Origin: an uncultured Pelagibacteraceae bacterium
Lineage (GTDB): Bacteria; Pseudomonadota; Alphaproteobacteria; Pelagibacterales; Pelagibacteraceae
Reading direction: 5' to 3'
NCBI GenBank assembly: GCA_902519465.1
Contig: CABYJW010000003.1
Coordinates: 857 to 64,856 of the forward strand
Length of the DNA: 64,000 bases
Shown: positions 94-48,599 of the stretch, piece by piece
Position numbering within the stretch: position 1 is the stretch's first letter
Layout: each line of letters opens with the position of its first letter
Made by a program: the position numbers and the translations under genes
Notes under the pieces: model-generated
What the model saw: the letters and a program-made list of their open reading frames with translations, nothing else
What the model was told of the DNA's origin: nothing
Databases searched by the model: none

Positions 94-1278
94 ATGTCTG
101 AAAAAAAATCAGTTGTAATTACATCGGCAGTCAGAACGGCTATTGGTTCTTTAGGGGGAACTCTAAAGAATATACCGGCTTATAAATTAGGCTCTTCGGT
201 AATCTCTAGTGCAATTAAAAAATCTAATTTAAAACCTTCGGAAATTGATGAAGTTATAATGGGGCATGTATTAACTGGTGGAGCTGGACAGAATCCGGCT
301 CGTCAAGCTGCGATAGAGTCAAGATTACCAAAAGAGATTCCTTCATATGTTGTAAATCAAGTTTGCGGATCAGGATTAAGATCTATAGCTTCTGGTTATC
401 ACTCAATTCTTTCTGATAACTCAAATATTGTTATTGCAGGCGGTCAAGAAAGTATGTCACAAGCTCCTCACGTCGTTCATCTAAGAAATGGAAAAAAATT
501 AGGAGATACGGAGCTGGTCGACTCTATGATTAAAGATGGCCTTTGGGATGCATTTAATGGTTATCACATGGGGATCACAGCAGAAAATGTTGCTGAACAA
601 TTTCAAGTAACAAGAAAAGATCAGGATAAATTTGCTTTTGACTCTCAGTCAAAAGCTTTAAAAGCACAAAAGGAAAATAAATTTGATGATGAAATAGTTC
701 CTTATGAAATTGAACTAAAAAAAGGTAATACTATTTTTAATAAAGACGAGCACCCAAGAGTTACTACATCGTTAGATACTTTAAGTAGATTACGTGGAGC
801 ATTTAAAAAAGATGGAACTGTTACTGCTGGGAATGCATCGGGTATTAATGATGGTGCGGCAGCTATTATTTTAATGTCAAAGGAAGAGGCAGAGAAAAGA
901 GGACTAAAACCTCTAGCAGAAATTAAATCATGGGCATCATGTGGCGTTGACCCATCGATTATGGGGACTGGACCTATACCATCTTCAAAAAAAGCTTTGG
1001 AAATTGCTGGATGGTCTTCAAAAGACTTGGACCTAATAGAAGCAAATGAAGCTTTTGCTGCACAAAGCTGTGCTGTTGTAAAAGAACTTTCGCTTCCAAT
1101 GGAAAAGGTAAATGTAAACGGTGGTTCAATTGCCCTTGGCCATCCAATTGGTGCTTCGGGCACGAGAATTTTTGTCACACTAATTCATGAAATGTTAAAA
1201 AGAGATTCCAAAAAGGGTCTGGCTACGCTATGTATTGGAGGAGGCATGGGCGTTGCTATGTGTATTGAACGAAAATGA
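94..1278 (+). CDS. acetyl-CoA C-acetyltransferase (thiolase II)
   Basis: 394-aa ORF with thiolase signatures VNQVCGSGLRS (active-site Cys), NGGSIALGHPIGASG and CIGGGMG near the C-terminus. Confidence 0.93.
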   Translation: MSEKKSVVITSAVRTAIGSLGGTLKNIPAYKLGSSVISSAIKKSNLKPSEIDEVIMGHVLTGGAGQNPARQAAIESRLPKEIPSYVVNQVCGSGLRSIASGYHSILSDNSNIVIAGGQESMSQAPHVVHLRNGKKLGDTELVDSMIKDGLWDAFNGYHMGITAENVAEQFQVTRKDQDKFAFDSQSKALKAQKENKFDDEIVPYEIELKKGNTIFNKDEHPRVTTSLDTLSRLRGAFKKDGTVTAGNASGINDGAAAIILMSKEEAEKRGLKPLAEIKSWASCGVDPSIMGTGPIPSSKKALEIAGWSSKDLDLIEANEAFAAQSCAVVKELSLPMEKVNVNGGSIALGHPIGASGTRIFVTLIHEMLKRDSKKGLATLCIGGGMGVAMCIERK

Positions 1279-1510: not shown

Positions 1511-1554
1511 AGTGTCAAAAAAGCGGATAAATTGTGTCAAAAATTGTGTATAAT
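1511..1554 (+). promoter_or_regulatory. candidate aceE promoter -10 (TATAAT 1549-1554) inside a direct-repeat, operator-like array
   Basis: AAATTGTGT occurs at 1529-1537 and 1541-1549 (12-nt period). GTGTCAAAAA occurs at 1512-1521 and 1534-1543 (22-nt period). TATAAT ends 6 nt before the aceE ATG. No good -35. Confidence 0.3.
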
Positions 1555-1560
1555 AAATGA

Positions 1561-4500
1561 ATGACTAAGAATATATCTGTTCCTGATATAGGTGATTTTA
1601 AGGATGTTGAGATAATCGAAGTACTTGTAAAACCTGGTGACCAAGTAAAAAAAAACGATCCAATTGTTACTTTGGAGAGCGACAAATCAAGTGTCGAGGT
1701 GCCTTCCCCAACTGAAGGTAAAATTTCTGAATTAAAAGTAAAAATTGGAGATAAGGTTTCTGAAGGAAGTGTTCTTGCCACCTTGGAAGGTGAAAATGAC
1801 AAGAAAGAGGAAGTTGCTTCTCCAAAAAAAGAAATTGAAGAGCCTAAAAAAGAAATAGTTCAACACACAGAAAAAACAAATGGGCTCAAGAATGGTAGAG
1901 AAACAATTTATGCTCAACCAATTTCTAAAGATGATATAGATCCTGCGGAAACACAAGAATGGTTGGACTCACTTAGAGCTGTAGTAAAATCAGACGGGTC
2001 CTCTAGAGCAGGTTATCTGCTTAAGAAAGTAATTGACGAAGCATATACTCAAGGATTAACTTTACCTGATACAAGAACTACACCTTATATTAACACTATA
2101 CCATCAACAGCTGACGTCAGATCCCCGGGTGATCAAAACTTAGAAAGAAAAATTAGAGCTTACATAAGATGGAATGCGGCTGCCATGGTTGTTAAAGCTA
2201 ACAAAAAAAATCCAGAGTTAGGTGGTCACATTGGTACTTTTGCATCTGCAGCAACGTTGTATGACGTCGGTATGAACCATTTTTGGAGAGCAAAAAATAA
2301 TAAGTTTGGAGGAGATTTAGTTTATTTTCAAGGTCACAGTGCGCCAGGTATGTATGCAAGAGCTTTTTTAGAGGGAAGAATATCAGAAAAACAATTGGAT
2401 AAATTTAGACAAGAAGTTGAAAAAGGTGGATTGTCCTCTTACCCGCATCCATGGTTGATGCCAAAATTTTGGCAGTTCCCAACTGTATCTATGGGACTTG
2501 GACCAATGATGGCAATTTATCAAGCAAGGTTTACTAAGTATTTAATTAACAGAGGTCTTTTAAAAAATCAGGATAGAAAAATTTGGTGTCACTTGGGTGA
2601 TGGTGAAATGGACGAACCTGAAAGTTTTGGTGCAGTGGGACTAGCAGCACGAGAGAAACTAGATAATTTAATTTTTGTTATAAATTGTAACCTTCAAAGA
2701 TTGGACGGGCCTGTGAGAGGTAATGGAAAAATTATTCAAGAACTTGAAGGTAGATTTAGAGGATCAGGATGGAATGTAATCAAAGTTATTTGGGGTTCTT
2801 ACTGGGATCAACTTTTATTTAAAGATAAAACTGGTTTACTAGTTAAAAGAATGACTGAGGCAGTCGATGGTGAATATCAGGCATTCAAAGCCAAAGGTGG
2901 AGCTTACGTAAGAGAGAAATTTTTTGGTAAATATCCTGAATTAAAAGACTTGGTAGCAAATATGACTGATGCTGATATTTGGAAATTAAATAGAGGAGGA
3001 CACGATCCTCATAAAGTTTACTCAGCTTATCATGCTGCTGTTCAATGCAAAGGTAAGCCAACAGTAATAATAGCTAAAACAATTAAAGGCTACGGGATGG
3101 GTAAATCTGGTGAGAGTATAAATACGACACACCAACAAAAGAAATTAGACGAGGAAGATTTATTATTTTACAGAGATAGATTTAATGTACCACTTACTGA
3201 TAAACAGGTTAAAAATATTGAATATTACAAGCCAGCAGAAAATTCCCCAGAAATAAAGTATTTAAAAAATTGCAGAGTTAAGCTTGGTGGACACATTCCT
3301 GAGAGAACCACTTTTGCAAAACCAGTTAAAACACCTCCTCAAGACATCTTTGAAAGTTTTATGAAGTCCACGGGTGATAAGGAAATGTCAACTACCATGG
3401 CCCTTGTAAGAATGCTTGCGAATTTACTTAGAGATAAAAATGTTGCTCCAAGACTAGTACCAATCATTGCAGATGAAGCAAGAACTTTTGGTATGGAAGG
3501 TTTTTTTCAAAAAATTGGTATCTATGCGCATGAAGGTCAAAAATATGAACCTGTGGACTCTGAGCAATTAAGTTCTTACAGAGAAGATAAAAGTGGCCAA
3601 GTTTTACAAGAAGGTATTACAGAGGCAGGAGCAATGTCATCATGGATTGCAGCTGGAACTTCTTACACAAATCATGATTTAGAAATGGTTCCCATTTATT
3701 TATTTTATTCAATGTTTGGTTTTCAAAGAATTGGAGATTTAGCATGGGCTGCTGCAGATTCTCAGACCAGAGGTTTTTTGATTGGAGCAACATCCGGAAA
3801 AACAACTTTAGCAGGAGAAGGTTTGCAGCACCAAGATGGACATAGTCTTCTCATGGCATCTGCAATACCTAACTGCGTAAGTTATGACCCTACTTTTTCA
3901 TATGAGATGGCGGTCATTTTTAGAGATGGACTTAAGAGGATGCATGAAAAAAAAGAAAATATTTATTACTACATAACTGCAATGAACGAAAATTATACTC
4001 ATCCTGAAAAACCTGCCGGTTCAGATCAGGGGATACTAAAAGGAATGTATTTATTTAAAAATTATAAAGGAAAAGGTAAAGCTAAAGTTCAAATGCTAGG
4101 TTCAGGGTCAATTTTAAGAGAGGTAATAAAAGCTGCTGAGACTTTATCAAAAGATTATGGGATTGATTGTAATGTTTGGAGTGTAACTAGTTTCAATGAA
4201 TTAAAGAAAGACGGCATGGAGATTGAAAGAGGGAATTTACTAAATCCAAAAGATAAGCCAAAGAAAAGCTATGTGCAAAAATGTTTAAACTCACAAGAAG
4301 GTATTATATTTGCAGCATCAGATTATATAAGATCACATGCAGATCAAATAAGACCATATATTAATAAGCCATTCTATACTTTGGGTACCGATGGTTTTGG
4401 AAGAAGTGATACAAGAAAAGAATTAAGAAAGTTTTTTGAAGTTGATAAAAAACACATTGTTACATACACTTTAAGCGCTTTAGCAAAAGAGCAATTACTG

Positions 4501-4575
4501 GCAACAGAACATGCAGAAAAAGCTATTAAAAAATACGATATTGATCAAAAAAAGGTTTTTCCAACAAAGTTATAA
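1561..4575 (+). CDS. aceE: pyruvate dehydrogenase E1 component, homodimeric AceE type, with N-terminal lipoyl domain fusion
   Basis: 1004 aa. Residues from about 115 match AceE (DPAETQEWLDSL, GHIGTFASAATLY, GDGEMDEPES ThDP motif). Residues 1-77 are a lipoyl-attachment domain (LESDKSSVEVPS) joined by a K/E/P-rich linker. Confidence 0.93.
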   Translation: MTKNISVPDIGDFKDVEIIEVLVKPGDQVKKNDPIVTLESDKSSVEVPSPTEGKISELKVKIGDKVSEGSVLATLEGENDKKEEVASPKKEIEEPKKEIVQHTEKTNGLKNGRETIYAQPISKDDIDPAETQEWLDSLRAVVKSDGSSRAGYLLKKVIDEAYTQGLTLPDTRTTPYINTIPSTADVRSPGDQNLERKIRAYIRWNAAAMVVKANKKNPELGGHIGTFASAATLYDVGMNHFWRAKNNKFGGDLVYFQGHSAPGMYARAFLEGRISEKQLDKFRQEVEKGGLSSYPHPWLMPKFWQFPTVSMGLGPMMAIYQARFTKYLINRGLLKNQDRKIWCHLGDGEMDEPESFGAVGLAAREKLDNLIFVINCNLQRLDGPVRGNGKIIQELEGRFRGSGWNVIKVIWGSYWDQLLFKDKTGLLVKRMTEAVDGEYQAFKAKGGAYVREKFFGKYPELKDLVANMTDADIWKLNRGGHDPHKVYSAYHAAVQCKGKPTVIIAKTIKGYGMGKSGESINTTHQQKKLDEEDLLFYRDRFNVPLTDKQVKNIEYYKPAENSPEIKYLKNCRVKLGGHIPERTTFAKPVKTPPQDIFESFMKSTGDKEMSTTMALVRMLANLLRDKNVAPRLVPIIADEARTFGMEGFFQKIGIYAHEGQKYEPVDSEQLSSYREDKSGQVLQEGITEAGAMSSWIAAGTSYTNHDLEMVPIYLFYSMFGFQRIGDLAWAAADSQTRGFLIGATSGKTTLAGEGLQHQDGHSLLMASAIPNCVSYDPTFSYEMAVIFRDGLKRMHEKKENIYYYITAMNENYTHPEKPAGSDQGILKGMYLFKNYKGKGKAKVQMLGSGSILREVIKAAETLSKDYGIDCNVWSVTSFNELKKDGMEIERGNLLNPKDKPKKSYVQKCLNSQEGIIFAASDYIRSHADQIRPYINKPFYTLGTDGFGRSDTRKELRKFFEVDKKHIVTYTLSALAKEQLLATEHAEKAIKKYDIDQKKVFPTKL

Positions 4576-4581
4576 AGTTTA

Positions 4582-5835
4582 ATGTCTGAAAAAAAAATAT
4601 TAGTCCCAAACATCGGAGATTTTAAAAATGTTGAAGTGATTGAAGTATTGGTTAAGTCAGGACAACAGATCAAAAAAAATGATCCTTTAATTACTTTAGA
4701 AAGTGATAAATCAAGTGTCGAAGTACCTGCTACAGATGAAGGAAAAATCAATAAAATAAGTGTTAAAGTTGGTGACAAAGTTTCTGAGGGAAATGAGATT
4801 CTATCATTGGAAACTATTAGTAAAAATGACGAAAGTAAAAAGATAACAAAAGTAAAAGAGAATATTGCTCCAAAAGAAATAGTGGAAGAAACTCTAAAAG
4901 AAATAGTTCCGGCAGTTAAAAAAGTAACTGGTGAAGGTATTTCGTCTGCAAGTCCAAAGGTGAGAAAATTTGCAAGGGAACTAGGTGCTGATATTGTTCA
5001 GATACCTGGATCAAAAAGAGCTGGAAGAGTAACTGAGGATGATGTGAAAAAATTTGTAAGATCACAAGTATCAGTTAATGAAGGAAAGGTTGAGAAAAAA
5101 ATCTATAAGGATGAATATCCTCATGAAGCATTTGGTGAAATAGAAAAAAAAGATCTTCCAAGAGTAAAAAAGCTTTCTGGTCCTCAACTTGTAAGATCTT
5201 GGACTGAAATTCCCCATGTAACCCAGCACGATGAAATAGATATTACTGAAATGGAACAGTTTAGAACAACTTTAATTGATAACTATACTGGTGAAAGGAT
5301 CAGAATAAGTCCTTTAGCATTTATAACTAGAGCTGTAGTTAATGCATTAAAAGAATATCCTAATTTTAATTCATCTATAGATACTGCAACTAACAAATTA
5401 ATATTTAAAAAATATTATCATGTTGGTTTTGCCGTAGATACACCACATGGTTTGATGGTTCCAAAAATGAGAAATGTTGATCAAATGGGTTTAAAAGAAA
5501 TTTATGAAGAACTTAAAAGAGTAAGTAAATTATGTAAGGAGCTAAAAATTGATAAAAAAGAATTCTTTGGTGGTTCTATGACAATATCAAGCCTTGGCGG
5601 TATCGGAGGAAATTTTTTTACACCAATTATAAATCCTCCTGAAGTAGCAATTCTAGGAGTGGGAAAAACATTTGAAAAAGTGAAGAAAGTAAATGGTCAG
5701 TTTATCGAAAGAAAAATATTACCAATCTCTTTGTCATATGACCACAGAGTTATAGATGGTGCTGAAGGTGCAAGATTTTGTGTCCACTTATCTAAAAGCT
5801 TAGGTAAAGATTTTGCATTCAAGCTAGCTGTCTAA
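4582..5835 (+). CDS. aceF: dihydrolipoamide acetyltransferase (PDH E2), single lipoyl domain
   Basis: 417 aa with a lipoyl domain (LESDKSSVEVPA), a subunit-binding domain (ASPKVRKFARELGADI) and a catalytic domain with SYDHRVIDGA. Confidence 0.92.
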   Translation: MSEKKILVPNIGDFKNVEVIEVLVKSGQQIKKNDPLITLESDKSSVEVPATDEGKINKISVKVGDKVSEGNEILSLETISKNDESKKITKVKENIAPKEIVEETLKEIVPAVKKVTGEGISSASPKVRKFARELGADIVQIPGSKRAGRVTEDDVKKFVRSQVSVNEGKVEKKIYKDEYPHEAFGEIEKKDLPRVKKLSGPQLVRSWTEIPHVTQHDEIDITEMEQFRTTLIDNYTGERIRISPLAFITRAVVNALKEYPNFNSSIDTATNKLIFKKYYHVGFAVDTPHGLMVPKMRNVDQMGLKEIYEELKRVSKLCKELKIDKKEFFGGSMTISSLGGIGGNFFTPIINPPEVAILGVGKTFEKVKKVNGQFIERKILPISLSYDHRVIDGAEGARFCVHLSKSLGKDFAFKLAV

Positions 5836-6732
5836 ATGAATAAAAAAATATTTTCGCTAATTTGCGCGGTCTCTTGTTCATTAATTTGGGGAACAGCATT
5901 TGTTGCTCAGGATATGGGTATGGACTACATAGGACCTTACACATTTTCTGCTGTCAGGTTGTTGCTAGGATTTTTCACCCTATTACCTTTTTTTTTTATT
6001 TTTGAATTTAAAAAAGTCAAAGAGACAAAATTAAGTTTTGAAAAAATATTTATTTACCTTTTTTTTCTTGGTTTTTTCTTAGCAGGTGGAAATATTTTTC
6101 AACAAGTTTCTCTTTTGTATACTGATGTTGCTAATTCAGCAGTTTTTACAGTTTTGTATGTAGTGATCGTTCCTATAATAGCCTACTTTCTTTTCTCAAA
6201 AAAAATTCATAATTCCGTTTGGCCTTCGGTTTTGATGTGTTTAGTCGGAGGTTTATTTTTAAGTGAACTTGGAAATCTACGTGTGAGGTTTGGTGACTCT
6301 TTAGTTGTAGTAGGTGCTTTTTTTTGGGCTTTCCACATAGTATTTATATCGAAATTTCTAAAGATTTTTAATTACCCAATCACAATTGCAACTTTTCAAT
6401 GTTTAAGTGCCTCTCTAATTTCTTTTATACCGGCTTTCTCCTTTGAATTTATTTCACTAAAACTTATATCAATGGAGACTGCCGAATTAATTTATGCGGG
6501 AGTTTTATCGAGTGGAATAGCTTTTATGCTGCAGGTTTTTGGACAGCAAAATCTTTCCCCTGCACCTGTCGCTATTATTTTTTCTCTAGAGGGTGTTTTT
6601 GGATCCATTGCAGCCTGGATAGTATTAGATCAATATTTAAATGAATTTAAAATATTTGGAATAATAATAATTTTATCAGCAGTTATTTTCTCACAACTAG
6701 CTCCAATGTATGGTAAAAGAAAATATGGATGA
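5836..6732 (+). CDS. EamA/DMT-family transporter
   Basis: 298 aa, about 10 hydrophobic helices in two EamA-like halves. ATG directly abuts the aceF stop. Confidence 0.8.
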   Translation: MNKKIFSLICAVSCSLIWGTAFVAQDMGMDYIGPYTFSAVRLLLGFFTLLPFFFIFEFKKVKETKLSFEKIFIYLFFLGFFLAGGNIFQQVSLLYTDVANSAVFTVLYVVIVPIIAYFLFSKKIHNSVWPSVLMCLVGGLFLSELGNLRVRFGDSLVVVGAFFWAFHIVFISKFLKIFNYPITIATFQCLSASLISFIPAFSFEFISLKLISMETAELIYAGVLSSGIAFMLQVFGQQNLSPAPVAIIFSLEGVFGSIAAWIVLDQYLNEFKIFGIIIILSAVIFSQLAPMYGKRKYG

Positions 6733-7111
6733 AACTAATTCAGGTTATGCAAAACATGTTGGCGGACTTAAGGGTAAAAAAATTGATAGTGCTCTTTTTG
6801 AATACGAAACTGAAGTAAAGGAAATGCATCTTAATACTGCTGGTATGGCACATGGTGGGTTCCTTACTTTTATAGCTGACACTGGTATGGGTAATGCTGC
6901 GCATCAAGTTGCTGGCAACAAAAGATGTGTAACAATTTCCTTAGAAATGAAATTTATATCTGCGGGTAAATTAGGCGACAAACTTATTGCTAAAGTAAAA
7001 GTTCAAAAGAAAACTAATACTTTAGTATTCTTAACCTGTGAGATTATTAACTCGCAAGGTGTAGTGGCTGTTACCTCGGGTGTATGGAAAATTTTGAAAG
7101 TTGATAAATAA
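6710..7111 (+). CDS. PaaI-family hotdog-fold thioesterase
   Basis: 133 aa. HGGFLTFIADTGMG is typical of PaaI/YdiI thioesterases. Start at 6710 or 6725, and both overlap the upstream gene. Confidence 0.7.
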   Translation: MVKENMDETNSGYAKHVGGLKGKKIDSALFEYETEVKEMHLNTAGMAHGGFLTFIADTGMGNAAHQVAGNKRCVTISLEMKFISAGKLGDKLIAKVKVQKKTNTLVFLTCEIINSQGVVAVTSGVWKILKVDK

Positions 7112-42968: not shown

Positions 42969-44372
42969 TTAAAAATGAATAGGTCTCTTATCAACTGCCA
43001 GAGCTGCTTCTTTAATTGCTTCAGTATGAGTTGGATGAGCATGACAAGTTCTAGCTATATCCTCTGAACTTGCACCAAATTCCATAGCTAAAGCCATTTC
43101 AGCAATCATATCACCACAATGAGGTCCAATTATATGAACACCTAAAACCTTATCTGTTTTTGCATCGGCCAAAATTTTTACGAATCCTTCCGACTCATTG
43201 TTAACTTTGGCTCTTGAATTAGCAAGAAATGGGAATTTGCCAACTTTGTAATTTATATTTAAATCTTTGAGATCTTCCTCAGTTTTTCCTACAGTTGCAA
43301 CTTCAGGAGAGGTATATATTACACCTGGAACAACGTCGTAATTCACATGACCAGATTGCCCAGCTAAAATTTCAGCGACTGCTATTCCTTCTTCCTCTGC
43401 TTTGTGAGCTAGCATCGGTCCTTTAATAACATCGCCTATTGCAAAAATATTTTCTAATGAAGTTTGAAAATTTTTATTTACTTCTATTCTTCCTGCCTGG
43501 TCTTTTTTTATACCTAATTTTGTTAAATTTAAGCCCTCTGTGTAGGGTTTTCTCCCAACTGAAACTAAAACCTTATCACATTCTAAACTAGATTTTTTAT
43601 TTGTTTTATTATCAATAAAATCAACTAGGACTTTGTCATTTTTATTTTTTACAGATGTAACTTTGTTTTCTAATAAAAATTTAATTCCTTGCTTTGTTAA
43701 AATTTTCTGAAATTCCTTAGAAATTTCTTTATCCATCCCAGGTGTTATATGATCTAAATATTCGATTACGGTAACCTTTGAACCGAGTCTCGACCAAACT
43801 GAACCCATTTCCAGACCAATATAACCACCGCCAATTATCACTAAATTTGTTGGTACTTTCTCCAATGAAAGTGCACCAGTAGATGATATTATATTTTTTT
43901 CATCTATATTTATACCAGAAAGAGAAACGGAAGATGAGCCGGTAGCAATAACAATATTTTGAGATTTGTAAGATGTTTTTTTTCCGTCTTGATAAACTAC
44001 TACATCATTTTTTGAAAACAGGACTCCTTTCCCCTTTATATAGGTTACTTTATTTTTTTTGAATAAGAATTCAACGCCCTTAGTTAAAATTTGGACGGAT
44101 TTACTTTTATTTATCATCATTTTATTAAGATTTAATTTAACATCTCCTGTTTCTATACCAATGTTATTAAAATGATTTTTTGCTTTTGAAAAAAGCTCTG
44201 AAGAATTAAGTAAACTCTTGGAGGGAATACATCCAACATTCAAACAAGTTCCACCTAATGTTCCCCTAGACTCGACACACGCAGTTTTTAGACCTAACTG
44301 AGCAGCCCTGATTGCACACACATATCCGCCGGGCCCACCACCTATTACTATTAAATCAAAATTTTTTTCCAT
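42969..44372 (-). CDS. lpdA: dihydrolipoyl dehydrogenase (E3)
   Basis: 467 aa with GGGPGGY, the redox-active disulfide GGTCLNVGCIPSK and C-terminal HAHPT. Confidence 0.93.
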   Translation of the reverse strand: MEKNFDLIVIGGGPGGYVCAIRAAQLGLKTACVESRGTLGGTCLNVGCIPSKSLLNSSELFSKAKNHFNNIGIETGDVKLNLNKMMINKSKSVQILTKGVEFLFKKNKVTYIKGKGVLFSKNDVVVYQDGKKTSYKSQNIVIATGSSSVSLSGINIDEKNIISSTGALSLEKVPTNLVIIGGGYIGLEMGSVWSRLGSKVTVIEYLDHITPGMDKEISKEFQKILTKQGIKFLLENKVTSVKNKNDKVLVDFIDNKTNKKSSLECDKVLVSVGRKPYTEGLNLTKLGIKKDQAGRIEVNKNFQTSLENIFAIGDVIKGPMLAHKAEEEGIAVAEILAGQSGHVNYDVVPGVIYTSPEVATVGKTEEDLKDLNINYKVGKFPFLANSRAKVNNESEGFVKILADAKTDKVLGVHIIGPHCGDMIAEMALAMEFGASSEDIARTCHAHPTHTEAIKEAALAVDKRPIHF

Positions 44373-44375
44373 TTC

Positions 44376-45701
44376 TTAAACGTTTAAAAAAAGTCTTTTT
44401 GGTTCTTCTAAAAAGTCCTTGATATTTTTTAAAAATGATACTGCCTCTTTGCCATCAACAATTCTATGGTCATAGGATAATGCTAAATACATCATTGGGC
44501 GAATTTTTATTTCACCATTTATCACAACTGCTCGATCAATTATATTATGCATACCTAATACTCCTGACTGAGGTGGATTGAGTATTGGAGTAGAAAGCAT
44601 TGATCCGTAAATACCTCCGTTAGTTATTGTAAAAGTGCCTCCTTGTAAATCATTTATTGTTAATTTGCCATTTCTGGCTTTCTCACCAATATTAGCAATA
44701 TTTTTTTCAATATCAGCAAAAGACATTTCATCAGGATTTCTTAAAACTGGAACAACTAGACCTTTTTCAGTACCAACTGCAAAACTTATATTATAATAAT
44801 TTTTATAAACAATTTCCTCATTCTGAATTTCAGCATTTATAGCTGGGTAATTTTTTAAGGCAGCAATACTAGCTTTAACGAAAAATGACATGAAACCTAA
44901 TTTTACTGAATATTTTTTTTTAAACTCTTCTTGATAATTTTTTCTTATTTCCATTATATTATGCATATCAACTTCGTTAAAAGTTGTAAGCATTGCAGCA
45001 TTATTTTGGGCTTCTTTTAATCTTTTTGCTATTGTTAATCTTAATCTTGTCATTTTAATTCTTTCCTCTGGGCCATCTTTTGTCTTTTTTAAATTTGGAG
45101 CAGGCTTAGTGCCCATTAGATTAATCAAATCTTCTTTTAAAACCATGCCTCTTCTTCCAGAGCCTTCGACTTGGTCTAAGCTAATATTTTTGTCTTGGGC
45201 TATTTTTCTGGCAGATGGTGAGGCTGTTTTTACTTTTGTTTTTTTTATTTTTTCAGTTTTATGTTCTTGATCTAAAATTAATGGAGCTTCCTCTTTTTCT
45301 GCCTCGTTTAAAATAAGTGTTTCCTTGCCATTAGAGATTGGTTTATTTATTTCGAATACTTCCTCATTTTTTTTCGGTTCTTCATCATAAATAGGAGTAC
45401 TTTTTTCTTTTTTTGGAGGTGGTGTATATTTTTTTTCTTTTTTATCTGTAACTGGTTTTGTGTCATTAGCTCCCACACTTCCTAAAAGGGTACCGACTTC
45501 AACGGTTGTTCCCTCTTTTACTGAGATTTTTTCTAAAATTCCATCAGAGGGTGATGGAACTTCAACATTAACCTTGTCAGTTTCTAGTTCTACTAATGGC
45601 TCATCTGAATTTACCTCTTCTCCAACAGTTTTAAGCCACTTTGATACTGTGGCCTCTGTAACTGATTCTCCTAAAGCTGGAACTATTATTTTTTCTGACA
45701 T
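44376..45701 (-). CDS. sucB: dihydrolipoamide succinyltransferase (OGDH E2)
   Basis: 441 aa with a single lipoyl domain ([12 protein letters not shown]) and a catalytic domain with SYDHRIVDG. Confidence 0.93.
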
Positions 45702-48599
45702 CTAGTTGTTTATTACCTTTTCTAATATTTCTTTTTGTTCTGCAAGATGTTTATTTAAATTTCCTGTGGCAGGTGATGCTGCAGCATTTCGTCCAACATA
45801 TTTGACCTTTTCTCCTTTTACTTGAATGATATCTAAAGTTCTATCAATATAGTGTCGCGCTGTATTCCATGCACCCATATTTTTTGGCTCTTCTTGACAC
45901 CAAAAAAATTTTGCATTTTTATATCTTTTAAGCTGCTTTCCAACCTGTTTTACAGGAAAAGGGTATAGCTGTTCAATTCTTAAGAACGCTACGCTATCAT
46001 TTTTTATCTTTTCTCTTTGCTCTATAAGATCATAATAAATTTTGCCTGAACACATAACGACTTTTTTTATTTTTTTATCTTTTTTTAGAGAAACAAGTTT
46101 GCTTCCTTTTAAATAAGCACTATCTTCTAAAATTCTATGAAATGTATTCTTTTTTGTAAAATCTTCTAGATTTGATAAACATCTTTTGTGCCTTAAGAGT
46201 GACTTAGGTGTCATGACTATAAGTGGTTTTCTAAAGTCTCTATGCATTTGTCTTCTAAGAACATGAAAATAGTTTGCTGGTGTTGTACAATTTACTACTT
46301 GTAAATTATCCTGGGCACATAACTGCAAAAACCTTTCTAATCTGCCTGAAGAATGTTCAGGACCTTGGCCTTCGTATCCATGGGGTAATAGCATCACAAG
46401 TCCACTTGCTCTTGACCACTTTGACTCTCCCGATGAAATAAATTGATCAATAACGACTTGTGCACCATTAACAAAATCTCCAAATTGTGCTTCCCAGAGC
46501 ACAAGCGTCTCAGGTTCAGATAGAGAGTAACCAAATTCAAAACCAAGAACACCTAATTCAGAAAGAAGACTGTCTATTACTTCAAAGTTTTTTTGTTTCT
46601 CCGACACATGTTGCAAGGGGATATATCTCTCATGACTATCCTGATTTCTTAGAACTGAATGTCTTTGACTAAAAGTTCCTCTTCCTGAGTCTTGCCCTGA
46701 TAATCTTACAGAGAATCCATCATTTAAAAGTGTTGCAAAGGCAAGTAATTCAGCTGTGGACCAATCAATCTGGTGATTTTGTGTGAACATTTTTTGCTTA
46801 TTTTCAAAAATTTTTATTAAAGTTTTATGAATATTAAAATTTTTTGGTAATTGTGTAATTTTTTTTCCAATTTCTATGAGGTTTTCTTTTTTTACTCCGG
46901 TCACACCTCTTCTGTCTTTGCCTATTTCTGGTTTAAAGCGTGACCATACTCCATCAAACCATTTCATTTTAACCTTGTAATCTTTTGCTCCAACAAATTC
47001 ATTATTTAAAAACTCTCTAAATTTTTTCTTGCTACTTTCAATTTCTGCTTTTGTAACTAACCCTTCTTTAATAAGTTTTTGACCATATATTTCTAAGGTA
47101 GAAGGATGATTTTTTATTTTTTTATACATCAATGGCTGAGTAAATGATGGTTCATCGCCTTCGTTATGGCCAAATCTTCTGTAGCAAACCATGTCAATAA
47201 CTACATCTCTATTAAATTTTTGTCTAAACTCAGTTGCAATTTTTGCGCAGTGCACAACCGCCTCTGGATCATCCCCGTTCACATGAAATATTGGTGCTTG
47301 AACCATTTTTGCTAAATCTGAGGGATAAGGAGATGATCTCGCGAACCGTGGTGCCGTTGTAAATCCAATTTGATTATTAACTATAATATGAATTGTTCCA
47401 CCGGTATTATGTCCTGGTAACCCGGACATAGCGAAACATTCTGCAACAACTCCTTGTCCGGCAAATGCCGCATCTCCGTGAATTAAAACTGGTATTACTT
47501 TTTTTCTTTCCTTATCTTTATGAAAAAATTGTTTTGCTCTAACTTGTCCAAGAACAACTGGATTTACAGCTTCTAAATGCGATGGGTTATCTGTTAAACT
47601 TATATGAACTAAGTTTCCATCAAATTCCCTATTTGCTGATGCTCCTAAATGATATTTTACATCTCCTTCAAAATCTTTTTTTGAGGTAATTTTTTCACCA
47701 AAAAATTCTTTAAAAATAGCTTTAAAAGGTTTTTGCATCATGTTGGCAAGCACGTTTAGTCTGCCTCTATGAGGCATTCCAATTTTGACTTCTTTAACTC
47801 CTAAATTACCTCCTCTTTTAATAATTTGTTCCAAGGCCGGAATTAATGACTCTGCGCCATCTAAGCCAAATCTTTTTGTACCAACAAATTTTACGTGTAA
47901 AAATTTTTCAAAACCCTCTGACTCGACTAATTTATTTAAAATTGCTTTCTTTCCATTTAATGTGAATTTGATTGACTTTTCTTTACCCTCAATTCTATCT
48001 CTTATCCATGTTCTTTCTTCAGGATCTGACATATGCATAAATTCGAATCCTATACTTCTACAGTAGGTTTCTTTTGCAATTGATAAAATTTCTTGTAAAG
48101 TTGCTGATTGTATACCAAGAACTCCATCTAAAAATATTTTTTTACTTAAATCTTTTTCTGAAAAACCATAACTTTCAGGTTTTAACTCCGAGTGTTTTTC
48201 TCTTTTTTGAAGACCAAGCGGGTCAAGGTTTGAGATTAAGTGTCCTCTAATTCTAAAAGCTCTCACAAGCATATTTGCTCTTACAGAATTTTTTGCTGCT
48301 TCTAATACATTGTCTTTATCAGGAAAAATTTCTAAATTTCCATTTTTATCCTTATTGACATCAAAATTATTTTCTAAATTATTTTTTATCTTTTTTTTTC
48401 TTGCCCAACTTGGACCATTTGCATTTTTTATAATTCCATCTTTTTCATCGTTCAGCCCTTCGAAAAATATCTTCCACTCGTTTGGTACTTTCTGAGGGTT
48501 ATTAAGATACTCTGCGTATAATTCTTGAATAAACTGGGAGCTGTTTGCTCCTAGAAATGATGTTTTTTCAAAAATGTTATTATTTTTTCCGTTGGCCAT
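45702..48599 (-). CDS. sucA: 2-oxoglutarate dehydrogenase E1
   Basis: 965 aa with typical SucA motifs (MPHRGRLNVL, HGDAAFAGQGVV, LLPHGYEGQGPEHSS). Confidence 0.95.
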   Translation of the reverse strand: MANGKNNNIFEKTSFLGANSSQFIQELYAEYLNNPQKVPNEWKIFFEGLNDEKDGIIKNANGPSWARKKKIKNNLENNFDVNKDKNGNLEIFPDKDNVLEAAKNSVRANMLVRAFRIRGHLISNLDPLGLQKREKHSELKPESYGFSEKDLSKKIFLDGVLGIQSATLQEILSIAKETYCRSIGFEFMHMSDPEERTWIRDRIEGKEKSIKFTLNGKKAILNKLVESEGFEKFLHVKFVGTKRFGLDGAESLIPALEQIIKRGGNLGVKEVKIGMPHRGRLNVLANMMQKPFKAIFKEFFGEKITSKKDFEGDVKYHLGASANREFDGNLVHISLTDNPSHLEAVNPVVLGQVRAKQFFHKDKERKKVIPVLIHGDAAFAGQGVVAECFAMSGLPGHNTGGTIHIIVNNQIGFTTAPRFARSSPYPSDLAKMVQAPIFHVNGDDPEAVVHCAKIATEFRQKFNRDVVIDMVCYRRFGHNEGDEPSFTQPLMYKKIKNHPSTLEIYGQKLIKEGLVTKAEIESSKKKFREFLNNEFVGAKDYKVKMKWFDGVWSRFKPEIGKDRRGVTGVKKENLIEIGKKITQLPKNFNIHKTLIKIFENKQKMFTQNHQIDWSTAELLAFATLLNDGFSVRLSGQDSGRGTFSQRHSVLRNQDSHERYIPLQHVSEKQKNFEVIDSLLSELGVLGFEFGYSLSEPETLVLWEAQFGDFVNGAQVVIDQFISSGESKWSRASGLVMLLPHGYEGQGPEHSSGRLERFLQLCAQDNLQVVNCTTPANYFHVLRRQMHRDFRKPLIVMTPKSLLRHKRCLSNLEDFTKKNTFHRILEDSAYLKGSKLVSLKKDKKIKKVVMCSGKIYYDLIEQREKIKNDSVAFLRIEQLYPFPVKQVGKQLKRYKNAKFFWCQEEPKNMGAWNTARHYIDRTLDIIQVKGEKVKYVGRNAAASPATGNLNKHLAEQKEILEKVINN

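What the first reader, a model, noticed from the sequence alone, without database searches (positions are those of the whole stretch)
1561..1905. Lipoyl domain fused to the N-terminus of an AceE-type pyruvate dehydrogenase E1, paralogous to the single lipoyl domain of the adjacent E2
The 1004-aa AceE ORF begins with a complete lipoyl-attachment domain (aa 1-77, lipoyl-lysine motif LESDKSSVEVPS). A K/E/P-rich linker follows before the normal AceE N-terminus (DPAETQEWLDSL). The domain is clearly a copy of the aceF lipoyl domain at 4582-4815. Compare MTKNISVPDIGDFKDVEIIEVLVKPGDQVKKNDPIVTLESDKSSVEVP with MSEKKILVPNIGDFKNVEVIEVLVKSGQQIKKNDPLITLESDKSSVEVP; the two also share a 14-nt identical DNA run, AAATCAAGTGTCGA. 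Lipoyl domains normally sit on E2. Known exceptions are E3 in some beta-proteobacteria and Neisseria, and E1-beta in Zymomonas. I do not know of a described fusion to the homodimeric AceE type. E2 here carries only one lipoyl domain (E. coli has three), so one swinging arm seems to have moved onto E1. No E3 gene follows aceF. The only lpdA in the window sits behind sucB (42969-44372), which suggests a shared E3.
Basis: partly seen in the sequence, partly recalled or inferred. Interest (0 to 1): 0.6.

Follow-up and report, generated by a model that had tools for sequence, protein, structure and literature searches.

The report
Lipoyl swinging arm fused to SAR11 AceE
In SAR11 marine bacteria the pyruvate dehydrogenase E1 enzyme (AceE) carries its own lipoyl "swinging arm", which normally sits on E2. 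Relatives that lost the E2 arm altogether show that the E1 arm is a working part of this central enzyme, a layout I found in no paper.

Summary
ORF 1561-4575 (1004 aa) is one uninterrupted protein. It has a lipoyl domain (aa 4-75, Pfam 72 bits against a cut-off of 22), a roughly 45-aa disordered K/E/P-rich linker, and a full homodimeric AceE (TIGR00759, 1432 bits). The window comes from a Pelagibacteraceae (SAR11) single-cell or metagenome genome.

- **Spread of the fusion.** It is in 60 of 60 family genomes searched and in at least 557 species-level SAR11 loci. About 138 other Pseudomonadota AceE genes lack it.
- **Layouts within SAR11.** E1 always carries one or two lipoyl domains. E2 carries one (this window), two, or none.
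- **E2 without a lipoyl domain.** This holds in 32 of 76 species loci and 16 of 145 near-complete genomes. The loss happened at least four times independently, and each time the E1 linker is longer. In those genomes the E1 domain is the only PDH lipoyl domain.

The E1 domain is therefore a working acetyl-carrying arm, not decoration. Each genome has one lpdA, next to sucB, so E3 is shared. The 14-nt identical run is real but is not evidence of recent copying.

I found no paper describing this. It is a new variant of a known kind; lipoyl domains are already known on Zymomonas E1-beta, on Neisseria E3 and on Mycoplasma E3. This scan has flagged the same fusion on other SAR11 DNA before.

The parts
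1561..4575 (+). aceE: one 1004-aa polypeptide made of a lipoyl domain, a linker and a homodimeric-type pyruvate dehydrogenase E1
   Evidence: ORF; Pfam and NCBIfam; a full-length 1-1004 match in 60 of 60 family genomes
1561..1791 (+). Lipoyl domain of E1 (aa 1-77; Pfam match aa 4-75 = 1570-1785)
   Evidence: PF00364 at 72 bits; aligned to E. coli E2p lipoyl domains; model and fold match; 39 invariant residues across 20 SAR11 species
1684..1686 (+). Codon of K42, the predicted lipoyl-lysine in the motif ESDKSSVEVP
   Evidence: Aligns with the lipoylated Lys of E. coli E2p domains 1-3; invariant in alignment A1
1792..1923 (+). K/E/P-rich flexible linker (aa 78-121)
   Evidence: pLDDT 28 with no secondary structure; hypervariable in sequence and length among relatives
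1924..4575 (+). AceE core (aa 122-1004). It begins with the DIDPAETQEWL segment, which corresponds to the E2-binding N-terminus of E. coli E1p.
   Evidence: TIGR00759 aa 122-1002; other Pseudomonadota AceE align from about residue 120 onward; the E. coli E1p N-terminus binds the PSBD (PMC6270654)
4582..5835 (+). aceF (E2p, 417 aa): one lipoyl domain (4594-4806), the PSBD/E3_binding domain (4948-5049) and the catalytic domain (5140-5802)
   Evidence: Pfam; NCBIfam; DHRVIDG catalytic motif present
42969..44372 (-). lpdA (E3, 467 aa), the only dihydrolipoyl dehydrogenase found; presumably shared by PDH and OGDH
   Evidence: TIGR01350 at 588 bits; one above-cut-off copy per genome in G000 and four relatives
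44376..48599 (-). sucB (44376-45701) and sucA (45702-48599), the OGDH E2 and E1 upstream of lpdA
   Evidence: NCBIfam

Best explanation
This is the SAR11 form of the pyruvate dehydrogenase complex. Its AceE-type E1 carries a lipoyl domain on a flexible 45-90-residue tether, joined directly to the E1 N-terminal segment. In E. coli that segment docks on the peripheral-subunit-binding domain (PSBD) of E2. The tether therefore starts at almost the same place in the assembled complex as the tether of a normal E2 lipoyl domain. Inferred steps: LipB and LipA lipoylate K42. The arm is then reductively acetylated at an E1 active site, hands the acetyl group to CoA at the E2 core, and is reoxidised by the single shared E3 (LpdA). 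In this window the E1 arm works beside one E2 arm. In many relatives it is the only arm. The domain arose by an old duplication of the SAR11 E2 lipoyl domain. The closest non-SAR11 operons carry the extra arm on E3 instead.
For: Shown directly:
- The domain passes the profile, motif and fold tests.
- The fusion is intact in 60 of 60 family genomes and in at least 557 species-level loci.
- The domain is under strong constraint: 39 invariant residues including K42, next to a hypervariable linker.
- E1 never lacks the domain, whereas E2 lacks its own in 32 of 76 species loci and 16 of 145 genomes that are at least 90% complete.
- The E2 genes without a lipoyl domain start 1-7 nt after the aceE stop and keep the PSBD and the catalytic His.
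- In four such genomes (97-99% complete) PF00364 hits only AceE, SucB and AccB.
- On the AceE tree the loss of the E2 domain needs at least 6 changes, at least 4 of them on well-supported branches.
- The E1 linker is longer wherever E2 lost its domain: median 64 aa against 48 aa, and in the same direction in every sister contrast.
- There is one lpdA per genome, and lipA and lipB are present.

From the literature:
- The E. coli E1p N-terminal residues 1-55 bind the PSBD of E2 (PMC6270654).
- A PDH whose only lipoyl domain sits on a non-E2 subunit works in Mycoplasma hyopneumoniae (PMC7873978).
Against: There is no biochemical evidence. Lipoylation of K42, acetylation by E1 and transfer at E2 are all inferred. 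In genomes whose E2 has no lipoyl domain, borrowing of the SucB lipoyl domain is not formally excluded. The lipoyl-domain tree rests on 78 columns and is poorly resolved. The linker-length contrasts are few and the genomes are related. lipB was not found in the window's own genome, which is only 63% complete. In this window E2 keeps its own arm, so the E1 arm could be partly redundant here.
Confidence: 0.8

Rival explanations
1. The E1 domain is a redundant, nearly neutral duplicate. The E2 arm, or another lipoyl protein, does the real work.
For: In this window E2 keeps an intact lipoyl domain. From my own knowledge, an E. coli E2p cut down to one lipoyl domain still works, so extra arms need not be essential.
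Against: The E1 domain is never lost in 60 of 60 genomes and in 80 of 80 loci, while the E2 domain was lost at least 4 times. It has 39 invariant residues, and it is slightly more conserved than the E2 domain (77% against 73% mean pairwise identity). Genomes whose E2 lacks the domain have no other PDH lipoyl domain.
Confidence: 0.1
2. The domain has a non-carrier role. For example it might dock E1 to E2 or E3, or regulate E1, without shuttling acetyl groups.
For: It sits beside the E2-binding N-terminus of E1. Lipoyl domains do make specific contacts with E1, E2 and E3.
Against: The lipoyl-lysine motif and the PDIG loop are invariant. A PDH with no carrier at all in genomes whose E2 lacks the domain would be inactive. 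The linker lengthens when E2 loses its arm, which fits a need for reach.
Confidence: 0.06
3. In lineages whose E2 lacks a lipoyl domain, the OGDH E2 (SucB) lipoyl domain serves PDH in trans, and the E1 domain is accessory.
For: SucB is the only other lipoyl-bearing E2 in those genomes, and E3 is already shared.
Against: From my own knowledge of the E. coli and A. vinelandii work, E1p enzymes recognise their cognate lipoyl domain specifically. The SucB domain matches the AceE N-terminus at only 38% identity over query residues 1-126. The E1 domain is strictly retained.
Confidence: 0.03
4. The fusion is an assembly or gene-calling artefact that joins a small lipoyl ORF to aceE.
For: The window genome is a fragmented assembly that is 63% complete.
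Against: The same open frame occurs in many closed single-contig genomes and in hundreds of independent assemblies from several sources.
Confidence: 0.01

Closest known systems
E. coli / Azotobacter vinelandii PDH complex (AceE homodimer plus AceF with 3 lipoyl domains)
   Same: The same E1 family (TIGR00759) and the same long-type E2, with lipoyl domains 47-49% identical to the E. coli and A. vinelandii ones. The aceE-aceF gene order is the same, and the E1 N-terminal segment that binds the PSBD is present.
   Different: One lipoyl domain sits on E1. E2 has one domain here and none or two in relatives. There is no operon lpdA, and one E3 is shared with OGDH.
Zymomonas mobilis PdhB (lipoyl domain on E1-beta of the heterotetrameric E1; NCBIfam NF008854 type)
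   Same: A lipoyl domain and a flexible linker sit at the N-terminus of an E1 subunit, in addition to the E2 domain (cited in PMC7873978).
   Different: The E1 class differs (alpha2-beta2 against homodimeric AceE). The window protein scores 25 bits against a cut-off of 454 for NF008854, so it is not a member. This is an independent origin.
Neisseria meningitidis P64K and Cupriavidus necator (Alcaligenes eutrophus) PdhL: E3 with an N-terminal lipoyl domain
   Same: An extra lipoyl arm is carried on a peripheral subunit of an AceE-type PDH. The nearest non-SAR11 AceE genes (60-62% identical) lie in aceE-aceF-lpd operons whose E3 has 1-2 such domains. P64K domain 1GJX matches the model at 2.0 A rmsd and 42% identity.
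   Different: The host subunit is E3, not E1. SAR11 has no PDH-specific E3.
Mycoplasma hyopneumoniae PDH (the lipoyl domain is on PdhD/E3; E2 PdhC has none)
   Same: It is a precedent for a PDH whose only lipoyl domain is on a non-E2 subunit (PMC7873978). This matches the SAR11 lineages whose E2 starts at the PSBD.
   Different: The carrier subunit is E3, and the E1 is heterotetrameric.
Lipoyl-AceE fusion in marine group II archaea
   Same: Reported as the same architecture, arisen independently.

Membership tests
Lipoyl-attachment domain (Pfam PF00364, Biotin_lipoyl) | Profile score above the gathering threshold | tested here: met
   72 bits (76.5 bits for aa 1-130 alone) against 22.1
Lipoyl-attachment domain (Pfam PF00364, Biotin_lipoyl) | Modifiable Lys in the D-K-(A/S) hairpin motif, aligned with known lipoyl-lysines | tested here: met
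   K42 in ESDKSSVE aligns with the Lys of GDKASMEVP in all three E. coli E2p domains. It is invariant in 20 SAR11 species.
Lipoyl-attachment domain (Pfam PF00364, Biotin_lipoyl) | Flattened beta-barrel fold | tested here: met
   The model has pLDDT 75-84 for aa 1-77 and six strands. It matches 1QJO at 1.5 A over 76 columns, and also 1IYU and 1GJX.
Lipoyl-attachment domain (Pfam PF00364, Biotin_lipoyl) | The Lys is actually lipoylated (rather than biotinylated or unmodified) | not testable with these tools
   Only indirect evidence: the best matches are PDH E2p lipoyl domains rather than biotin carriers, and lipA and lipB are present in relatives.
Homodimeric pyruvate dehydrogenase E1 (AceE, NCBIfam TIGR00759) | Equivalog score above the cut-off over the full length | tested here: met
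   1432 bits against 859.9, profile positions 2-883 of 885. The rival model TIGR03186 (AKGDH_not_PDH) scores 1278, below its cut-off of 1408.
Homodimeric pyruvate dehydrogenase E1 (AceE, NCBIfam TIGR00759) | ThDP-binding GDG...NCN motif, and the PDH_E1_M and transketolase-like C-terminal domains | tested here: met
   GDGEMDEPE...NCNLQRLDG can be read in the translation. PF17831 scores 346 bits and PF22613 83 bits.
Homodimeric pyruvate dehydrogenase E1 (AceE, NCBIfam TIGR00759) | Adjacent cognate long-type E2 (aceF) | tested here: met
   aceF starts 6 nt after the aceE stop.
E1-beta with lipoyl domain (Zymomonas type, NCBIfam NF008854) | Profile score above the cut-off; E1-beta (transketolase pyrimidine-binding and C-terminal) body | tested here: not met
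   25.2 bits against a cut-off of 454, and only over the lipoyl part.
PDH complexes with the lipoyl arm on a non-E2 subunit (functional class) | A complete lipoyl domain and flexible linker on a peripheral subunit that docks on E2 | tested here: met
   The docking region is inferred by homology to E. coli E1p residues 1-55.
PDH complexes with the lipoyl arm on a non-E2 subunit (functional class) | The arm is catalytically competent | not testable with these tools
   Supported indirectly by lineages whose E2 has no lipoyl domain and whose genomes hold no other PDH lipoyl domain.

The most novel reading that the evidence does not exclude
In SAR11, the most abundant heterotrophic bacteria in the ocean, the E1-borne arm is the principal and obligatory acetyl carrier of pyruvate dehydrogenase. 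The classical E2 arm is dispensable: it was lost at least four times, each time with a longer E1 tether. This would be the first PDH complex of the AceE type whose swinging arm hangs on the decarboxylase rather than on the core. The number of arms would then scale with bound E1, and each E1 dimer would bring its own substrate.
Probability: 0.6. Interest if true: 0.7.

Novelty: new variant of a known kind. Interest (0 to 1): 0.6.

Why it matters
The textbook rule is that E2 is both the core and the carrier of 2-oxoacid dehydrogenase complexes. Known exceptions put an arm on E3 or on E1-beta. Here an AceE-type E1 carries it, in a lineage that dominates ocean surface waters and depends on pyruvate metabolism.

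SAR11 also offers a natural series of layouts: E1 with one or two arms, and E2 with none, one or two. That series makes long-standing questions directly testable:
- how many arms a complex needs;
- where the arms must be anchored;
- how long the tether must be.

It also matters for annotation and for metabolic models of streamlined genomes. Complete SAR11 genomes can hold an E2 that looks truncated but is probably functional.

Tried and rejected
- **Representative-library search.** I searched with aa 1-200 to find fusions outside SAR11. The top 150 hits were mostly multi-lipoyl E2 fragments. The 8 hits that had both a lipoyl domain and an AceE N-terminus were all SAR11-like (62-97% identical to SAR11 loci). 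P0251 and P0124 looked like candidates but are ordinary E2s.
- **Long open frames in other Pseudomonadota.** Frames of 1005-1148 aa upstream of AceE looked like possible fusions. Six were fetched and have no lipoyl domain; they are just stop-free upstream DNA.
- **Recent gene conversion between the two lipoyl-coding segments.** Rejected for this window: 67% nucleotide identity, and identical codons at 23 of 51 shared residues against 25.2 expected.
- **Descent of the E1 domain from the E3-borne domain of the nearest operons.** Not supported. SAR11 E1 and E2 domains share the DKSS motif and separate from the outgroup E2 and E3 domains, though support is modest.
- **Other phyla.** They could not be surveyed. 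No handle outside Pseudomonadota was available, and the one genome-contig scan returned only SAR11.
- **Literature.** Six completed searches found no description of a lipoyl-AceE fusion. A seventh failed on a term that was too short.
- **Promoter and terminator scan.** It added nothing.
- **Complex prediction.** Not run. E1 N-terminus with PSBD is a textbook pair, and a pass would not have changed my odds.
Full report
**Observation**

The window's first large operon holds an uninterrupted 1004-aa ORF at 1561-4575 on the + strand. An in-frame TGA at 1558-1560 means ATG 1561 is the first possible start. Met1 is invariant in 20 related species.

Pfam places a Biotin_lipoyl domain at aa 4-75, at 72 bits against a gathering score of 22.1. 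The remainder matches PDH_E1_M, the transketolase-like domains and NCBIfam TIGR00759 (aceE, homodimeric type) at aa 122-1002, at 1432 bits against a cut-off of 860.

K42, in the motif ESDKSSVEVP, aligns with the lipoyl-lysine of each of the three E. coli E2p lipoyl domains. An AlphaFold model built on a 20-species alignment gives three parts:
- a confident all-beta domain for aa 1-77 (pLDDT 75-84);
- a disordered stretch at aa 78-116 (pLDDT 28);
- helices from aa 128 onward.

The domain superposes on the E. coli innermost lipoyl domain 1QJO at 1.5 A rmsd and 49% identity, and on the Neisseria P64K domain 1GJX at 2.0 A.

The next gene, aceF (4582-5835, 417 aa), has one lipoyl domain, one E3_binding domain and the catalytic domain. 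The two N-termini are 55% identical over 114 aa. The genes after aceF are an EamA-like transporter and a PaaI-type thioesterase. The only lpdA lies behind sucA-sucB at 42969-44372 on the - strand.

**Origin of the window and reality of the fusion**

The window lies in a 770-kb assembly that is 63% complete. Its nearest public relatives are Pelagibacteraceae (SAR11) single-cell genomes such as AG-430-F10.

The same fused protein, mostly 1004 aa long, fills the protein-database hit list from ENA, NCBI and JGI assemblies. Whole-genome search gave these results:
- A match to query residues 1-1004 was found in 60 of 60 genomes of the window's family. Many of these are closed single-contig genomes of 1.2-1.5 Mb.
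- The other family of the order has no AceE at all.
- The species-level genome scan found at least 557 relatives, and all 80 that were kept are Pelagibacterales.

An assembly or gene-calling artefact is therefore excluded. The tallies include two genomes flagged as unpublished (G111, G811). No specific claim here rests on them.

**Spread outside SAR11**

In 300 genomes sampled across the class, only family f1 gave a match spanning both the lipoyl domain and the AceE start.

In 400 genomes sampled across the phylum, 138 genomes other than the window's own carry AceE. Every listed match starts at about query residue 76-129. Six genes with suspiciously long open frames were fetched, and none has a lipoyl domain upstream.

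I could not survey other phyla. I did not test that.

**The key result: the layout varies within SAR11**

E1 always carries a lipoyl domain. What E2 carries varies.

| Type | E1 | E2 | Where seen |
|---|---|---|---|
| A | lipoyl-AceE | lipoyl-PSBD-catalytic | this window |
| B | lipoyl-AceE | PSBD-catalytic, no lipoyl domain | G071; G795, same genus as the window |
| C | lipoyl-lipoyl-AceE | lipoyl-PSBD-catalytic (G001) | G001, G113 |
| D | lipoyl-AceE | lipoyl-lipoyl-PSBD-catalytic | G023 |

Type B is common. It accounts for 32 of the 76 species loci in which the 5' end of aceF is visible. It also accounts for 16 of 145 genomes that are at least 90% complete.

Three further observations show that type B is real and that its E2 is intact:
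- In type B, aceF starts 1-7 nt after the aceE stop and opens directly on the PSBD (SASPKVRKFARELG), so there is no room for a hidden exon or frameshift.
- The catalytic DHR motif is kept.
- In four type-B genomes that are 97-99% complete, PF00364 finds only three carriers: AceE, SucB and the biotin carrier AccB. A type-A control has four.

On a tree of the AceE core, presence or absence of the E2 domain needs at least 6 changes, at least 4 of them forced by well-supported branches. The window's own four-member type-A clade is sister to a type-B clade.

The E1 linker is longer in type B. The median is 64 aa (range 51-86) against 48 aa (range 45-53). The difference goes the same way in every sister contrast: 51-54 against 47, 57-59 against 45-50, and 64 against 49-53. 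These contrasts are few and the genomes are related, so I treat the pattern as suggestive.

**How it most likely works**

The linker joins directly to the DIDPAETQEWL segment, which corresponds to the start of E. coli E1p. NMR work on E. coli showed that E1p residues 1-55 bind the PSBD of E2 (review PMC6270654).

In a normal E2 the order is lipoyl domain, linker, PSBD. In SAR11 it is lipoyl domain, linker, then the E1 segment that sits on the PSBD. The anchor point of the arm has therefore moved by only one non-covalent interface. From there the arm should reach the same E1, E2-core and E3 sites.

The rest is inferred. K42 is lipoylated by LipB and LipA. Both genes are present in relatives. 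lipA is present in the window's genome, but lipB was not found in that 63%-complete assembly. The arm is then acetylated at E1, discharged to CoA at E2, and reoxidised by the single LpdA shared with OGDH.

Three facts argue that the E1 arm is a working and probably the principal carrier:
- E1 never loses its domain, while E2 loses its own repeatedly.
- The E1 domain has 39 invariant residues beside a hypervariable linker.
- The E1 domain is at least as conserved as the E2 domain, at 77% against 73% mean pairwise identity.

In this window both arms are present, so their relative contributions are unknown.

**Origin of the E1 domain**

The nearest non-SAR11 AceE genes (60-62% identical, from other classes of the phylum) lie in aceE-aceF-lpd operons. 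In those operons E3 carries one or two N-terminal lipoyl domains. That is the Neisseria and Cupriavidus arrangement.

SAR11 lacks the operon E3 and has the peripheral arm on E1 instead. The 78-column tree of lipoyl domains is weakly resolved, but it shows three things:
- SAR11 E1 and E2 domains separate from the outgroup E2 and E3 domains.
- Most SAR11 E2 domains group together, so they cluster by gene rather than by genome.
- The second E1 domain of G001 pairs with that genome's own E2 domain.

This points to an old duplication of a SAR11 E2 domain onto E1, followed by later lineage-specific duplications. In this window codon identity at shared residues is at the chance level (23 observed, 25.2 expected). 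The 14-nt identity therefore reflects the conserved DKSSVE motif plus codon bias, not recent conversion.

**Comparison with what is known**

Lipoyl domains on non-E2 subunits are documented in four cases (PMC7873978):
- Zymomonas E1-beta;
- Neisseria E3;
- Alcaligenes E3;
- Mycoplasma hyopneumoniae, where E3 holds the only PDH lipoyl domain.

The SAR11 protein is not a member of the Zymomonas-type family. It scores 25 bits against a cut-off of 454 for NF008854. It is a full member of AceE, and its N-terminal domain is a full member of the lipoyl-domain family.

Six literature searches found no description of a lipoyl domain on an AceE-type E1. SAR11 genomics papers mention aceEF only as present (PMC10030771). 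The architecture is of course visible in public sequence databases.

This scan has flagged the same fusion on several other SAR11 windows. One of those notes reports an E2 without a lipoyl domain (e1-3866843), which I confirmed independently here.

**Verdict**

The observation and the reading are both sound. The feature is a family-wide, selected redesign of a central enzyme. It is a new variant of a known kind. It has a clear mechanistic hypothesis, and SAR11 supplies a ready-made natural series of layouts for testing it.

Noticed in passing
window 1545-1563: TGTGTATAAT, an extended -10-like element, ends 6 nt before ATG 1561. An in-frame TGA lies at 1558-1560 and there is no Shine-Dalgarno sequence. 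This suggests a leaderless or near-leaderless aceE mRNA.
   Followed up: partly
alignment A1, columns about 118-133 (for example L075, L086, L102, L068): A subset of SAR11 E1 linkers shares a conserved motif, L/I-P-x-x-T-E-x-I-I-x-x-A-E, inside the otherwise hypervariable tether. It could be a short helix or a docking element. It is not evident in this window's linker.
   Followed up: no
G001:C1:10942-13545, G085:C7:12995-15604, G095:C4:48374-50983: Some family genomes carry a second, unfused AceE (51-52% identical, aligning from residue 124 onward). In G095 I found only this copy, and no aceF at E<=1e-60. A SAR11 IIIa paper also notes multiple aceE copies (PMC10030771).
   Followed up: partly
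L117 (G530:C13:7900-12200), - strand: The E3 of one of the closest non-SAR11 PDH operons carries two N-terminal lipoyl domains (704-aa frame). Several neighbouring operons have one.
   Followed up: partly
G000:C26:773-1643: In the window's own genome lipA matches in two overlapping pieces, with one TGA inside the shorter (first) piece. This is either a frameshift or an assembly error. lipB was not found in this 63%-complete assembly.
   Followed up: no
G119:C1:27929-28852: In one closed genome aceF aligns only to residues 1-304 (316-aa frame), so the E2 catalytic domain may be truncated.
   Followed up: no
L111 (G071 E2, C-terminal region): This E2, which has no lipoyl domain, reads DHRVVNG instead of DHRVIDG at the catalytic motif. 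The His is kept and the Asp is replaced by Asn.
   Followed up: no
window 94-1278, 5836-7111: aceEF is flanked by an acetyl-CoA C-acetyltransferase (thiolase) upstream. Downstream lie an EamA-like transporter and a PaaI-type hotdog thioesterase. All are acetyl- or acyl-CoA-related neighbours.
   Followed up: no
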